A DNA stretch of 64,000 nucleotides from the human T2T-CHM13v2.0 reference genome, Homo sapiens: NCBI RefSeq assembly GCF_009914755.1, contig NC_060941.1; one strand, written 5' to 3'. The position numbers were made by a program, and so were the translations under genes. Below the pieces are notes generated by a model. The model was not told where the DNA came from and made no database searches. It saw only the letters and a program-made list of their open reading frames with translations. Shown here piece after piece: positions 13,755 through 58,744 of the stretch (position 1 is the stretch's first letter; each line of letters starts with the position of its first letter).

Positions 13755-13834
13755 CTTGGCCTTGGTGATGGTGCAGTGGAGGGCGTTGTTCTCCTGGTCA
13801 TACAGCAGGCTGAAGTCCAGCGTGCCCAGGGCAG
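13755..13834 (-). CDS. DOC2B: DOC2B coding exon 2 (start of C2A), 80 nt
   Basis: Acceptor ccgcag|CT, translates (T)[26 protein letters not shown], donor AAG|GTAG; frame continues from exon 1. Confidence 0.96.
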
Positions 13835-16057
13835 CTGCGGACAGAGGAGGGCACAGGTCCCACCCTGGCCGCATCTTGGAGAGGCTTCGCCTGCCCCTGT
13901 GAGACCAGATGAGCCTGGCCTGGGCAGGTGCCACCGTTCCATGGCGGCTGCCACCAACCAAGCACCTGCTCTATGCCAGCCCCTCACCCATCCTCCCAGT
14001 CCCACCCAACCCTGGGAAGTCACAATAATCTCCCCACTTTCCAGAGGAGGAGCTGAGACCCAGAGAGGTCAGGTGGGTCACTCCAGTTCCCTGTCTGGCC
14101 CAGTGTGTGGTCCACCTGAGCTGGGCACCCAGCCAAAGGAGTTCCTGCCCTCCTGGTGCAACTGCCAGTCTGGGCCCCGTGCCTCAGTTTCCCTCACCTG
14201 TGAAATGTCACAAGGATCACACAAGGCGGAGGAGACGAGGCTTTGAGAGGAACAGGTCCTGGCCAGGAAGATCAGCTGATTTGCTCAACAGTCCCCCAGC
14301 CAACACACAGGACTGCAGCTCCTCTGTCTCTCTGGCCCGTTGGGAACCCCGAGCAGGCCGTGAGGAGCCAGCTGGGTCCTCATACTGCTGCCCCCAAGTC
14401 TCTCAATGGCAGTGGTAACTCCCAAAAGCCGGGGGGAGGGTGCAGCCATAATTGGGGGAGGTTGCAGCCATAATTGGGTGCAGCTGCCTCCCTCCCCGGG
14501 GGCAATCACTCATAGCAGCTGTGGCTTTCCATGCAGAAGCGGCTCCCAGCATGGAGGCCAAGGTGATGGTTGGGGCAGAGCTTGGAGATGATGGTGGGGG
14601 GCAGAGCTTAGTGGCAGTCCGCAGACAGCAAGATGCACATTCACAGATGGCTTCAGAAGCCCAGAGCCTGCTCCCAGGCTGCAGGGCTGGTCAAATGGTG
14701 TCACATTCCTTCATTATTTACCAAGTGTTTACAACATGCCAGACTCTAGGGGATGGACATCTGTGAGGCAGAGTCCCTATCCCAAGGAAAGCACAGCTTA
14801 AGGGGAGGAACAAATGGAAATAATTTGCCGCAGTAGAGTCTGGTGAGCCGGGAGCCATGGGGAGCCCATGTGAATTGGGACCACCAGGGAAGGCTTCCTG
14901 GAGGAGGTGATGCTTCACCTGAGCCATGAGGGATGAGTAGGAGTTGGCCAATGGCAAAGAGGGGCTGGGGGAGGTGACGATTCCAACCACAGGCCAACCA
15001 GCAGGTACGGGCTTAGTGGCTGGTGTGATCCCGGGATAAGGGAAGGCCAAACTTGAAAGACTGTGTTCTTCAGGCTCTGAGCTAGGCTCCCAACCTGGAT
15101 CTAGATCCAATTACGGCCACACCTGACCAGGCCCATCATTTACATCTCTTCTGCGGCTGCTTTCCTACTTCAGAAGCAGACCCTACGGCCTGCACAGCTG
15201 AAAATATTTACTATCCAGCCCTTCTTTATAGAACAAGTTTGCAGATCTCTGGGCGAGTGCTGGGCCCAGGCATAACAAAGTTTCTTGGGTCTGCAGGGAA
15301 ATTGGCTAATGAAAGGCCACGAGTGTGGAGTGTCCTTTATTCTGAGCTGGTGATGGGAGTGGCATTTGTCTAGATCATCCCCTTCTAACACGGGTCAGGC
15401 ACATGTCTCTGTCTTCGCAGCAGTGTGGGGTGCAAGACCTGCCCTCTGACATCAGTCTCCTCGGTTCAAATCCCAGCGTGCACTTCCCTGCTGTGTGGCC
15501 AGCTTATCTAACGTCTTTATGCCTCAGTTTACTCATCTGTGAAATGGAGACAACGATAGTATCCACCTCACAGCACAGTGTGCCTGCGGTGTAGGAGGTG
15601 CTCAGTAGATCATTATAGAAGGAGCAGATCCCTATGGTGGGTTTTCTAGCTAACAGTACTGGCTTCTCTAAGACCCATTCTGGAATGAAACTGTCCTCAA
15701 TTGGCTCATTTCCCTCCCTGCCTTTGGGAACAGAACATACAAATAGTCACTTAAATTTTTTGAATAACCTGAGTCATTGCTATGGCCACGATGACTCTTC
15801 CGTATGTCACGGTCATGTTCCAGAGGCAAAAGGGGACACGAAGCAACCCCTGCACCAGAGGGTCCCGGGTGGCCCTCTTTTCGGTTTTCTTCATTTTTCT
15901 GCCTCTTCCTTTGACATCAGCCTGAAACTCCTATTAGATTACTTGTCTGTGTTGGCGCAGACAGCTCTCACCTATTCAATAATTGTTTCTCCCATGAGAC
16001 CAGGTGATGATACTTGTTGGAAGTGTGTGCAAACTAAGAGCCAACAGGCCTTGAGTG

Positions 16058-16470
16058 GCTGGTGTGGGGCTCATGCCTGTCATCCCAGCAGTTTGGGAGG
16101 CCGAAGCAGATGGATCACTTGAGCTCAGGAGTTCGAGACCAGCCTGGCCAACATGGCAACAAAAACTACAAAAATGGCCGGGTGTGGTGGCTCACGCCTA
16201 TAATCCCAGCACTTTGGGAGGCTGAGACGGGTGGATCACTTGAGCCCAGGATTTCAAGACCGGCCTGGCCAACATGGAAACACCCATTTCTACAAAAAAT
16301 ACAAAAATAGCCGGGCATGGTGGCGCATGCCTGTGGTCCCAGCTACTCGGGAGGCTGAGGTGGGAGGACCGCTTGAGCCCAGGAAGTTGAGGCTACAGTG
16401 AGTGTGATTGTGCCACTGCATCCAACCTAGGCGACAGAGCGAGATCCTGTCTCAAAAAAATAAATAAATA
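16058..16470 (+). mobile_element. Alu monomer followed by a full Alu
   Basis: Left arm, then complete dimer with A-rich tail. Confidence 0.88.
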
Positions 16471-17417
16471 CTAGGTCTTGAGTGAAGCCTGAGGCACGTT
16501 CTCCTGAGCAGGGTATGTGTGCAGCAGCAATAGCTGTAGCTGGCCTTCAGCTGCCTGCATGCTAGCTGCCATCTCCACACCAGGCAGGTGAGGCTGCTGG
16601 AAGGGAGGTGTATCCCACTGCTCCTGCAGCAATGAACACAGCCACAGCCCGAGATGCACCAATCTGTACTTTTGTAACAATATTCTCTGAAGCTGTTGGC
16701 TTTACATGATAGTAAATGGATCTGCTGTTCAGGTCAGGCCTACCTGGGGTTTGTTCCCCCAACGAATTAGCCCCCTGAGCACAGGGACCATGCCTTGGCC
16801 ACACCTGTGAGACCAACAAACAGCAGATGCAGACACACATGGCTGGTCCATTCAAACCAACTTGCCCTCCAGGTGCTCCCAGGAGCTGGGATCTGGTGTG
16901 ACACCCAAGTGTAAAAATGCACATTCTGATTTCTGCCTGTTTCCCAACCCCAGAGAAGGACAGCCAGAAGACAGAGCGGCTGCCTGCTCCCCCTGGGACA
17001 CCCAGCTCCTGGAGGGGAGAAGCCCCTGCACTGGCTCTACAGAAACCCCTGTCCAAGGAGGGCAGCAATCTTCTCCAACTGCCTGGGGGGAAAACTGACA
17101 CCCGTCACCACCTCCTGGGAAGGAACAGCACACCCAGTGTGTCACCAGGAAGGGACTGATGAATTTCTTTGAACTCCACTGGAAGGTCTGTAAGAAATGA
17201 TAGTTTATAAATAGAAGCTCGGTCACAGTTTTGAGAGGCTGGTGAAGCTCTCTTACGGAGCACATGGCCCAAACTCTTCATTTCCCTTTAGAGAAATGAG
17301 GCTCAGAGAGGGGAGGGGAGCTGCTCAGCGTGGCCCAGCAGACCCAGGCACAGAATCTAGGCCTCTTCACTTCCATCCTGATAGTTTCTCCCTTAAAGCC
17401 TACTGGCTCCCAAGAAG

Positions 17418-56865: not shown

Positions 56866-57427
56866 CTTTGGATGAGAGAAAAGGCCACCACATGGTGAGC
56901 AGCGGTGGAGTCCCTCCCTCCCCGGTGACAGCTCGGCCTTTGGGAATGAGATGGAGGAGCTGGTGGGGAAGGCAGGCTTCTGCTGACAGCATCCGTGCCT
57001 CAGCCCGAGCTCGAGACCAGCACCGCTCTGCTCTGCTGTGTGATGGCAGGAAAGTCACCTGCCCCTCTGGGCTTCAGGCCCTCCTCCTAACCCAGGTGAT
57101 CAACATGGCGACCTCAGGATGCCGGAAGGAGCAAATGGGCACGGAAAGAGAACACCCTCCTTTAAGCCAATCTTTCCCCAGGTTGTTTCTTAAGCCCAGG
57201 AACCCTCTCTGCACTGGGCCACACAGCTTCCGCCTTTATCACTGGACATTTACTGAGGACCTCCTAGGGGAAGGCAGTCCATGTGACACTGGATTTTGTC
57301 TCCCCGGAACCCTGTGAAGGACACCGTACCGATAATAGAACTGGGCACAGAGAGATCAAATATAAGGGTGAACCATATTGAACTGCCGATATTTCACTGT
57401 TTTTGAACCACAAAAATGCAATTTCAA

Positions 57428-57725
57428 TTGGGCGCAGTGGCTCTTGCCTGTAATCCCAACACTTTGGGAGGCCAAGGTGGGAGGACTGTTTCAGCCCAGG
57501 AGTTCGAGACCAGCCTGGGCAACATAGGGAGACCCCGTCCCTTTGAAAAATACAAAAAATAATTAGCCGGGCATGGTGGCACTTGCCTATAGTCCTAGCT
57601 ACTTGGCAGGCTGAGGCAGGAGGACCACTGGAGCCCAGGAGGTCGAGGCTGCAGTGAACGGTGATCACACCAGTGCACTCCAGCCCGGGCAACAGCATGA
57701 GATCCTGTCTCAAAAAAAAAAAAAA
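57428..57725 (+). mobile_element. Alu (AluJ-like) in the last RPH3AL intron
   Basis: Alu dimer, flanked by gcaatttca direct repeats. Confidence 0.92.
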
Positions 57726-58595
57726 GCAATTTCATATGGTTCAACCTGGGGGTCTGCTCAAGGTCACATGGCTGTGGGTGGCAGGGCTGGGACAAGAACT
57801 CGGGGCTGCCGGATTCCACACTGTCCTCTGTGGAGGACCTCCAGGAGGCTAGAGGGAGGGGGCAGGGTCCACTCCACAGCCAAAGATGCCTCCCGGATGC
57901 TCTGCAGCTCCTGGGAGCCATCGAGTGGGGAAGGAGAGAGGTGCGGCAGGCGTTCCTGTGGGTGGCTGCCGGGTGCCCTCCACACCCCGGGGACGGAGAT
58001 CAGCTGCTGCCCTGGTGCATGCGTGTACCCATGAATCCTCTGGCCAGGGAGGGGCCCAACCTGCCCAGGGCTTCTTTCTTGAAGGAGACAGGGCTGATCC
58101 TGCACCTGCGCAGTTTTCTCTGGCTTCAGTTTAAGGAGAACCCTCACCCCCGCCACAGGATGATCCTGGGCCAACCAGGGCTGGGCCCAGCAGGTGCAGG
58201 GCAGGGTGGGAGCCCAGGATTCTCCCCTCACTCTCTCTCTGTGCCTTGGTTTCTACACCCATCAAATGGGACAATAAGCCTCCCAGCCACTCTGCCAAGA
58301 GAATGAAAGTTCGCCCCAGGGGAGCCCGACACGTTTTATGTAGCAGAGGATGGTAACCACTGCTGTGATTACCGAGAGTGGCTAGGGATGGCTACCATTA
58401 TCATTCTGGGTCCCTCTCTCTGTTCCTTGCAGGCAGGGATGGGGTCTGGCTCACCTTGTTCCCCCGCACAGTGCTTGGTAAACAACATGCAGAATTGAAA
58501 ATGTCACCGACCAGTCTCCAGTTTGGGAGGAGTGAGTGAGAGAGGACACGGCCGCGGGGGCAGGAGAGGGGAGAAGGCAGCAGTTGGGTACTCAC

Positions 58596-58744
58596 CGGGG
58601 CCCTTCGGGTCAGCCCGGGGCGGGGTCCCCCTGGCGGGTCAGCAGAGCCTGTCCCCGTCTCACCACTGGCCAGGCTGCTCTGGCACCCAGAGAGGTGGCC
58701 CGGCGGGTGGGTGAACCCCATCCTGGGGGCCTCCACGCTGCCAC
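58596..58744 (-). CDS. RPH3AL: RPH3AL (Noc2) penultimate coding exon, 149 nt
   Basis: ccacag|GT GGC AGC..., (G)GSVEAPRMGFTHPPGHLSGCQSSLASGETGTGSADPPGGPRPGLTRRAP, donor CCG|GTGAG; matches the recalled human Noc2 C-terminal region. Confidence 0.92.

What the first reader, a model, noticed from the sequence alone, without database searches (positions are those of the whole stretch)
13755..58744. RPH3AL and DOC2B in tandem look like a split rabphilin, and the splice phases allow a read-through fusion
Seen: both genes are on the minus strand with RPH3AL upstream and ~32 kb between them. The RPH3AL acceptor at 58744 is phase 1 (N|GT GGC) and the DOC2B exon-2 acceptor at 13834 is also phase 1 (N|CT GCC), placed exactly at the start of C2A. 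The RPH3AL donor at 58596 is phase 0 and would fit DOC2B exon 3 or 4. The candidate RPH3AL poly(A) signals are the variant ATTAAA. Established: Noc2 has the Rab3/Rab27-binding domain of rabphilin-3A but no C2 domains; DOC2B has rabphilin-like C2A/C2B but no Rab-binding domain. An origin by fission of a rabphilin duplicate has been suggested before, so the arrangement itself is not new. Inference: splicing from the RPH3AL donor upstream of 58744 (outside the window) to 13834 would give an in-frame Rab-effector plus C2A-C2B protein in secretory cells that express both genes.
Basis: partly seen in the sequence, partly recalled or inferred. Interest (0 to 1): 0.8.

Follow-up and report, generated by a model that had tools for sequence, protein, structure and literature searches.

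The report
Known split-rabphilin gene pair; fusion unproven
RPH3AL and DOC2B are the two already-described halves of an ancient duplicate of the rabphilin-3A gene, and although one splice between them would stay in frame, nothing found here shows that such a fused message is made.

Summary
The sequence features are real. The DOC2B exon-2 acceptor (13834) and the RPH3AL exon-9 acceptor (58744) are phase 1. The RPH3AL exon-9 donor (58596) is phase 0. The only AATAAA/ATTAAA hexamers in the RPH3AL 3' UTR are two ATTAAA. One detail is wrong: the upstream phase-1 donor is at 63928, inside the window.

The "split rabphilin" reading is correct but already published (Craxton 2010, PMC2823689, passages read). 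I confirmed it against RPH3A on chromosome 12. Three Rab-binding-domain junctions and the C2A exon borders sit at the same places and phases.

The 3' half of DOC2B exon 1 is homologous to the RPH3A linker exon just upstream of C2A. So the ancestral partner of acceptor 13834 is DOC2B's own exon-1 donor, and the break lies upstream of it.

The read-through fusion has no support:
- The supplied RefSeq table has no such model.
- The paper searches found no fused name.
- The usual junction, penultimate exon to second exon, is out of frame.
- The RPH3AL poly(A) site is complete.

No RNA data could be examined. Low interest.

The parts
63928..64000 (-). RPH3AL exon 8. It runs on to 64041, just past the window edge. 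It is 114 nt with phase 1 at both ends. Its donor at 63928 is the only visible donor that is in frame with DOC2B exon 2.
   Evidence: acceptor ...ctcttccag|TG, donor CAG|gtaagg, 114 nt. No match to RPH3A beyond composition.
58596..58744 (-). RPH3AL exon 9 (penultimate). It is 149 nt, with a phase-1 acceptor and a phase-0 donor.
   Evidence: No Pfam family. No significant match in 80 kb of RPH3A (best E 0.16, 547 of 2000 shuffles reach the score).
55331..56865 (-). RPH3AL terminal exon. The CDS is 56794-56865 (23 codons plus stop). The 3' UTR holds an Alu and a GT repeat.
   Evidence: The acceptor has 14 of 17 pyrimidines.
55422..55465 (-). RPH3AL poly(A) site core. ATTAAA sits at 55465-55460 and 55450-55445, CA at 55431-55430, and the GU-rich GTGTGTTG at 55429-55422.
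   Evidence: The RefSeq transcript end (55331) lies about 100 nt further on, with no AATAAA or ATTAAA just before it.
22880..55330 (.). Stretch between the two genes, 32,451 bases. On the minus strand it holds 11 AATAAA and 14 ATTAAA hexamers, and it also holds LINC02091.
   Evidence: A filtered translated comparison with RPH3A found no further conserved piece here.
25053..28480 (-). LINC02091 (exons 28325-28480 and 25053-25687). It is a same-strand two-exon RNA. Its exon-2 acceptor has a long pyrimidine tract, and AGTAAA and GATAAA lie before its 3' end.
   Evidence: and the supplied gene table. That it would capture read-through transcripts is inference.
22555..22879 (-). DOC2B promoter-proximal part of exon 1: 5' UTR and codons 1-51, with no counterpart found in RPH3A. 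The AG at 22556-22555 is in phase 1, at the point where homology to the RPH3A linker exon starts. It may be a fossil acceptor.
   Evidence: AG occupies 21 of 372 positions in this exon's CDS, so about 6% by chance.
22336..22554 (-). 3' part of DOC2B exon 1 (codons 52-124 plus one base). It is homologous to the RPH3A linker exon directly upstream of the C2A exon. It ends in a phase-1 GT donor at the same place.
   Evidence: Local alignment score is 104 against 46.7 +/- 7.8 for composition-keeping shuffles (0 of 2000 reach it). Composition-corrected tblastn gives no hit.
13755..13834 (-). DOC2B exon 2, the first C2A exon. It is 80 nt, with a phase-1 acceptor and a phase-0 donor.
   Evidence: RPH3A, DOC2A and the DOC2G locus have the same borders.
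4749..7538 (-). DOC2B exons 3 (7464-7538), 4 (5415-5524) and 5 (4749-4875), which make up the rest of C2A.
   Evidence: Each matches one RPH3A exon over its full length (E 1e-13 to 1e-19).

Best explanation
The interval holds two independent genes that are the two halves of an ancient duplicate of rabphilin-3A.

- RPH3AL kept the Rab-binding exons. It now ends in two exons of its own and a complete, if ATTAAA-type, poly(A) site near 55430.
- DOC2B kept the last linker exon and the C2A and C2B exons. It starts at a G+C-rich first exon of its own.
- That first exon is a hybrid. Its 3' part is the old rabphilin linker exon. Its 5' part (5' UTR and codons 1-51) has no counterpart in RPH3A. I infer that it came from what was once intron, after a promoter arose there.
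- The phase-1 acceptor at 13834 is the ancestral intron in front of C2A, kept in RPH3A, DOC2A and the DOC2G locus. Its natural partner is DOC2B's own exon-1 donor.
- The fit between the RPH3AL exon-8 donor and this acceptor is either a leftover of a linker built from phase 1-1 exons or plain chance. It is not a sign of a fusion product.

Shown: borders, phases and homologies. Inferred: the order of events, and that little or no productive read-through occurs.
For: - Published statement of duplication and fission with tandem linkage: Craxton 2010, PMC2823689 (passages). It is the only paper in the library that holds rabphilin, Noc2, Doc2 and fission together.
- The exon-2 peptide finds exactly four places in the genome: DOC2B, RPH3A, and one each on chromosomes 11 and 16. 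All four have ag|NN at the same codon position and AAG|gt at the exon end.
- The FYVE_2 model (PF02318) breaks at positions 30/31 and 79/80 in both RPH3AL and RPH3A. The three junctions have the same place and phase in both genes: phase 2, phase 0, then a phase-0 donor.
- DOC2B exons 2-5 each match one RPH3A exon end to end. The first C2B exon and the last exon also match.
- DOC2B exon 1 codons 50-123 align to the 225-nt, phase 1-1 RPH3A exon at chr12:112853348-112853572. Both end ..Y-[ED]-S-D-[DE]-x|gt in phase 1. 0 of 2000 shuffles reach the score.
- RPH3AL exons 8-10 show nothing beyond composition: 491, 547 and 1856 of 2000 shuffles reach their scores.
- Against a fusion: the exon 9 to exon 2 junction frameshifts. 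The poly(A) site has hexamer, CA and GU-rich element at normal spacing. The supplied RefSeq table lists no read-through model.
- No fused gene name in the text library: 1 paper of 8.4 million holds 'RPH3AL-DOC2B', and its title marks it as a buffalo selection scan (listing only, not read).
- No fused name in the supplements I could search: Leung 2021, 11 files; Babiceanu 2016, 2 files with 1 further file not searched; RTCpredictor, 1 file.
Against: - No RNA-seq, long-read, 3'-end or nascent-RNA data could be examined, so absence of read-through is not shown.
- The exon 8 to exon 2 junction really is in frame, and both sites look like good splice sites.
- Both poly(A) hexamers are the ATTAAA variant, and the RefSeq end lies about 100 nt past them. 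This hints at ragged 3' ends.
- The homology between DOC2B exon 1 and the linker exon lies in proline- and acid-rich sequence, and it vanishes under composition-corrected BLAST.
- RPH3AL exon 8 has no detectable RPH3A counterpart, so calling its phase a relic is inference.
- The supplement searches were thin. The GTEx chimera tables of Singh 2020 were not held. The conjoined-gene tables of Prakash 2010 were not reached. In the human cortex long-read data RPH3AL itself seems undetected, by my reading of unlabelled columns showing 0 against 22.
Confidence: 0.85

Rival explanations
1. Low-level read-through occurs as transcriptional noise. Some polymerases pass the RPH3AL poly(A) site, and RPH3AL donors are spliced to downstream acceptors (LINC02091 exon 2, DOC2B exon 2). 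The products are mostly out-of-frame or non-coding chimeras with no function.
For: The genes lie on the same strand 32.5 kb apart. The poly(A) hexamers are the ATTAAA variant. Good acceptors lie downstream at 25687 and 13834. Read-through chimeras between neighbouring genes are common in human tissues, judging from titles and abstracts in the listing.
Against: No fused name appears in any text or supplement searched. The poly(A) site is complete. 25 further AATAAA or ATTAAA hexamers lie on the way. The supplied RefSeq table has no such model.
Confidence: 0.2
2. A regulated read-through mRNA joins RPH3AL exon 8 to DOC2B exon 2. It makes a working protein with a Rab3/Rab27-binding domain and C2A-C2B, in effect a rebuilt rabphilin, in secretory cells.
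For: The junction is in frame with codon GCT. It starts the DOC2B part exactly at the edge of the folded C2A domain. The RPH3AL part would keep all three Rab-binding exons, which lie upstream.
Against: It requires skipping two RPH3AL exons whose acceptors are good, plus a complete poly(A) site. The standard penultimate-to-second-exon junction is out of frame. The phase match is explained by descent or by one-in-three chance. No annotation or text supports it (supplied table). Cells already have RPH3A for this architecture.
Confidence: 0.03
3. The tandem pair arose from two whole tandem copies of a rabphilin duplicate that each lost the complementary half, rather than from one copy breaking in an intron.
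For: Craxton notes that doc2b exists without a linked rph3al in several fish genomes. The halves can therefore be kept or lost independently.
Against: No relic of C2 exons lies downstream of RPH3AL, and no relic of Rab-binding exons lies upstream of DOC2B, in the filtered translated comparison. Such relics would not be expected to survive this long anyway. The in-phase AG at the start of the linker homology in DOC2B exon 1 fits a break within one gene.
Confidence: 0.1

Closest known systems
Rph3al-Doc2b linked fission pair of a Rph3a duplicate (Craxton, BMC Genomics 2010, PMC2823689; credited there to its reference 33, which I did not read)
   Same: The genes, the tandem order, and the claim that Rph3al is the N-terminal part and Doc2b the C-terminal part of an Rph3a-type gene, all argued from shared gene structure. 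My own border and phase comparison agrees.
   Different: Nothing essential. I add that the 3' part of DOC2B exon 1 matches the RPH3A linker exon, with an in-phase AG at the start of the match. This may already be visible in that paper's additional files 48-50, which are PDFs I could not open.
Rabphilin-3A (RPH3A, chromosome 12)
   Same: The Rab-binding zinc-finger exons match those of RPH3AL. The linker exon, C2A and C2B exons match those of DOC2B. Intron places and phases are identical where compared.
   Different: RPH3A is one transcription unit. Here the two halves are separated by 32.5 kb that holds a poly(A) site, a lncRNA and a promoter. RPH3AL exons 8-10 and DOC2B codons 1-51 have no detectable RPH3A counterpart.
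Read-through (conjoined, cis-spliced) chimeras between neighbouring same-strand genes, for example SLC45A3-ELK4 (title in the listing)
   Same: Same-strand neighbours, with the downstream gene's first exon lacking an acceptor, so exon 2 would be the landing site.
   Different: No chimeric transcript is documented. The usual penultimate-exon to second-exon junction is out of frame here. The gap of 32.5 kb is at or beyond the range I recall as typical (under 10 kb in the abstract of PMC4422297; about 30 kb recalled from Qin 2015, not read).

Membership tests
Fission products of a rabphilin-3A duplicate (Rph3al + Doc2b) | The N-terminal gene carries the rabphilin-type Rab-binding zinc finger, with the same intron places and phases as RPH3A. 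| tested here: met
   PF02318 matches break at model positions 30/31 and 79/80 in both genes. Junction phases are 2, 0, and a phase-0 donor in both.
Fission products of a rabphilin-3A duplicate (Rph3al + Doc2b) | The C-terminal gene carries C2A-C2B exons with the same borders and phases as RPH3A. | tested here: met
   Exons 2-5 match exon for exon with the same splice places. The first C2B exon and the last exon also match. The middle C2B exons were not checked border by border.
Fission products of a rabphilin-3A duplicate (Rph3al + Doc2b) | The two genes lie in tandem on one strand, N-terminal half upstream. | tested here: met
   Both are on the minus strand. RPH3AL ends at 55331 and DOC2B starts at 22879 (supplied table; exon sequences verified).
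Fission products of a rabphilin-3A duplicate (Rph3al + Doc2b) | The linkage is conserved across tetrapods and zebrafish. | not testable with these tools
   Only the human genome was on hand. This is taken from Craxton 2010.
Read-through / conjoined gene | A transcript or junction reads joining exons of both genes. | not testable with these tools
   No RNA data were available. There are no fused names in the text library or in the supplements searched. The supplied RefSeq table has no such model.
Read-through / conjoined gene | The penultimate exon of the upstream gene joins the second exon of the downstream gene and gives an open frame (the rule is recalled, not read here). | tested here: not met
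   The exon 9 donor (phase 0) to exon 2 acceptor (phase 1) junction gives a stop 28 codons after the junction.
Read-through / conjoined gene | A weak or absent termination signal at the upstream gene. | tested here: inconclusive
   Only ATTAAA variants are present, but with CA and a GU-rich element at normal spacing. Strength cannot be judged from sequence alone.

The most novel reading that the evidence does not exclude
In cells that express both genes, a fraction of RPH3AL transcripts runs past the ATTAAA site. The exon-8 donor at 63928 is then spliced to DOC2B exon 2 at 13834, or to the possible fossil acceptor at 22554 inside DOC2B exon 1. The result is an in-frame protein with Noc2's Rab3/Rab27-binding domain and DOC2B's calcium-sensing C2A-C2B. 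An ancient gene fission would then be partly undone at the RNA level.
Probability: 0.04. Interest if true: 0.6.

Novelty: already known. Interest (0 to 1): 0.15.

Why it matters
If a fused Noc2-DOC2B protein were made, it would link Rab3/Rab27 vesicle tethering to a high-affinity calcium sensor in insulin-secreting and neuroendocrine cells. It would also be a rare case of splicing reversing a gene fission.

As things stand, the locus is a clean textbook example of gene fission that is already in print. My small addition is the likely break point. DOC2B's first exon appears to be the old linker exon extended upstream into former intron, which would make the N-terminal region of DOC2B a product of that extension.

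Tried and rejected
- Translated genome-against-genome comparison of chr17:42001-126000 with 80 kb of RPH3A. Alu matches swamped it twice. After filtering it gave only known exons.
- Search for RPH3A counterparts of RPH3AL exons 8, 9 and 10. Nothing beyond composition.
- A wide paper search on RPH3AL plus read-through terms returned 7,998 papers ranked without RPH3AL. Only 1 of the 30 listed holds RPH3AL, and it is an endometrial sarcoma study. Uninformative.
- Supplements of Singh 2020 (GTEx chimeras): only 344 characters held, nothing to search.
- PMC8125626 names LINC02091 once in a paper on ovarian cancer fusion transcripts. It does not hold RPH3AL or DOC2B, and I could not read it.
I therefore know the phases of only its last three donors and the three Rab-binding exons.
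- Earlier scan notes were not open.
- I did not score splice sites with a trained model, because none was on hand. Pyrimidine counts and consensus are given instead.
- I rejected the idea that ATTAAA alone marks a leaky terminator, because the rest of the site is complete.

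
Full report
**What is in the sequence**

- DOC2B exon 2 begins ...ctctgtccgcag|CT GCC CTG GGC and ends GCC AAG|gtaggc.
- RPH3AL exon 9 begins ...tttcccacag|GT GGC and ends GCC CCG|gtgagt.
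- The last RPH3AL exon begins ...catccaaag|GTA and reaches its stop after 23 codons.

A script that adds up the coding pieces gives the following phases.

| Site | Phase |
|---|---|
| DOC2B exon-1 donor | 1 |
| DOC2B exon-2 acceptor | 1 |
| DOC2B exon-2 donor | 0 |
| DOC2B exon-3 acceptor | 0 |
| DOC2B exon-4 acceptor | 0 |
| RPH3AL exon-9 acceptor | 1 |
| RPH3AL exon-9 donor | 0 |

One detail of the finding is wrong. The phase-1 donor upstream of 58744 is not outside the window. It is the donor of exon 8 at 63928 (CAG|gtaagg). Exon 8 is 114 nt with phase 1 at both ends. I checked this by fetching the 41 bases that lie past the window edge.

**The possible junctions**

| Junction | Result |
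|---|---|
| Exon 8 donor to DOC2B exon 2 | In frame, junction codon GCT |
| Exon 9 donor to exon 2 | Frameshift, stop 28 codons after the junction |
| Exon 9 donor to exon 3 | Open, but removes the first 26 residues of C2A |
| Exon 9 donor to exon 4 | Open, but removes the first 51 residues of C2A |

The exon 9 to exon 2 junction is the pattern I recall as usual for read-through chimeras.

Exon 2 does sit at the edge of the folded domain. Its 26 residues are residues 9-34 of the DOC2B C2A crystal chain 4lcv_A and residues 6-30 of the rabphilin-3A C2A chain 4lt7_A. The Pfam C2 model is covered from position 12 to 102 of 104 by exons 3-5.

**The 3' end of RPH3AL**

- The 3' UTR has no AATAAA.
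- The second ATTAAA is followed 15 nt later by CA (55431-55430) and then at once by GTGTGTTG. The site has all the usual core parts and cannot be called weak on the hexamer alone.
- The RefSeq end (55331) is about 100 nt further on, with no AATAAA or ATTAAA in front of it.
- Between the two genes the minus strand carries 11 AATAAA and 14 ATTAAA.
- It also carries LINC02091. That RNA's second exon has a long pyrimidine tract before its acceptor at 25687, and AGTAAA and GATAAA before its end. I infer that a polymerase running on from RPH3AL would meet this terminal exon before it reaches DOC2B.

**Is it a split rabphilin?**

Yes, and this is in print. Craxton 2010 (PMC2823689; I read the passages returned) makes these points:

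It is the only paper in the library that holds rabphilin, Noc2, Doc2 and fission together.

I repeated the comparison on the human genome.

- **C2A acceptor.** The exon-2 peptide finds four places: DOC2B, RPH3A on chromosome 12 (72% identity), and one each on chromosomes 11 and 16. By position I take the last two to be the DOC2G locus and DOC2A. All four have the acceptor two bases before the same codon and the donor after the same AAG.
- **Rab-binding exons.** The FYVE_2 model (PF02318) matches three exons in RPH3AL and three in RPH3A, with the same break points at 30/31 and 79/80. The three junctions have the same place and phase in both genes.
- **C2 exons.** DOC2B exons 2, 3, 4 and 5 each match one RPH3A exon over their whole length, with E from 1e-9 to 1e-19. 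The first C2B exon and the last exon also match.

**Where the break lies**

- RPH3AL exons 8, 9 and 10 have no match in 80 kb of RPH3A. The best E values are 0.75, 0.16 and 0.054. In shuffle tests, 491, 547 and 1856 of 2000 shuffles reach the observed scores.
- DOC2B exon 1 is different. Its codons 50-123 align to the RPH3A exon at chr12:112853348-112853572. That exon is 225 nt, has AG and GT borders and phase 1 at both ends, and lies directly upstream of the C2A exon.
- Both exons end in an acidic stretch with Y-[ED]-S-D-[DE] and then a phase-1 donor. DOC2A's first exon ends the same way.
- The sequence is rich in proline and acid. BLAST with composition correction reports no hit. Against 2000 shuffles that keep composition, however, the local score of 104 stands at 46.7 +/- 7.8 and none reaches it.
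- So the ancestral partner of the acceptor at 13834 is DOC2B's own exon-1 donor. The gene broke upstream of the linker exon, not at the intron in front of C2A.
- At the exact codon where the homology starts, DOC2B exon 1 has an AG in phase 1 (22556-22555), in register with the RPH3A acceptor. AG fills 21 of 372 positions in that exon, so the chance of one at a given spot is about 6%. This is suggestive, no more.
- The simplest story, which is inference, is that a promoter arose in the intron upstream of the linker exon of the duplicate. Transcripts starting there read through the old acceptor. The 5' UTR and codons 1-51 would then be former intron.

**The read-through fusion**

Nothing I could reach supports it.

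- The supplied RefSeq table has no read-through model. No DOC2B exon lies upstream of 22879, and no RPH3AL exon lies downstream of 55331.
- In the text library, only one paper holds "RPH3AL-DOC2B". By its title it is a scan for selection in buffalo breeds; I saw only its listing. No paper holds a fused name with LINC02091.
- In the supplements of a long-read study of human and mouse cortex (Leung 2021, 11 files), fused genes are written with an underscore. All four occurrences of RPH3AL are the plain name. By my reading of unlabelled columns, RPH3AL shows 0 against 22 annotated isoforms in human cortex. That tissue is therefore a poor test.
- Babiceanu 2016 (2 files searched, 1 not searched) and RTCpredictor (1 file) hold neither gene.
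- The GTEx chimera tables of Singh 2020 were not held.
- The paper reader then closed, so the conjoined-gene tables of Prakash 2010 and the ovarian cancer paper that names LINC02091 were not seen.

A phase match is expected about one time in three by chance. Here it may also be inherited, since the RPH3A linker exon is itself phase 1-1. It carries little weight either way.

**Verdict**

- The sequence observations hold, with one correction.
- The split-rabphilin reading is right and already known.
- The fusion is a formal possibility that needs two good exons and a complete poly(A) site to be skipped. It has no supporting record, but I could not test it against RNA data.
- I put about 20% on some noise-level chimeric reads existing and about 3-4% on a working fused protein.
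- Interest is low. The only new detail is the likely anatomy of the break point in DOC2B exon 1, which may already be visible in supplementary PDFs that I could not open.

Noticed in passing
window 22555-22556 (minus strand), inside DOC2B exon 1: An AG in phase 1 sits exactly where homology to the RPH3A linker exon begins, in register with that exon's acceptor. It may be a fossil of the ancestral splice acceptor. The chance of an AG at a given spot in this exon is about 6% (21 of 372 positions).
   Followed up: partly
window 55331-55465 (minus strand): The RPH3AL poly(A) core (ATTAAA, CA, GTGTGTTG) predicts cleavage near 55430. The RefSeq transcript end is at 55331, about 100 nt further on, with no AATAAA or ATTAAA just before it.
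   Followed up: partly
window 25053-25687 and 28325-28480 (minus strand): LINC02091 has a canonical GT-AG intron, a long pyrimidine tract before its exon-2 acceptor, and AGTAAA and GATAAA hexamers 37 and 26 nt before its 3' end. It lies on the same strand, 2.2 kb upstream of the DOC2B start. A paper on ovarian cancer fusion transcripts (PMC8125626) names it once, but I could not read it.
   Followed up: partly
window 63928-64000, continuing to 64041 (L043): RPH3AL exon 8 opens with a serine-aspartate run (VSSDSDSDSD). It has no detectable counterpart in 80 kb of the RPH3A locus.
   Followed up: yes
window 55914-56220 and about 55640-55655 (minus strand): The RPH3AL 3' UTR contains an Alu element and a short GT dinucleotide repeat.
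   Followed up: no
L004 (chr16:30290618-30293695), positions about 1991-2236: DOC2A's first coding exon lies within 1.5 kb of its C2A exon. It matches DOC2B exon 1 residues 5-84 (E 8.5e-23) and ends in the same Y-D-S-D motif as the RPH3A linker exon.
   Followed up: partly
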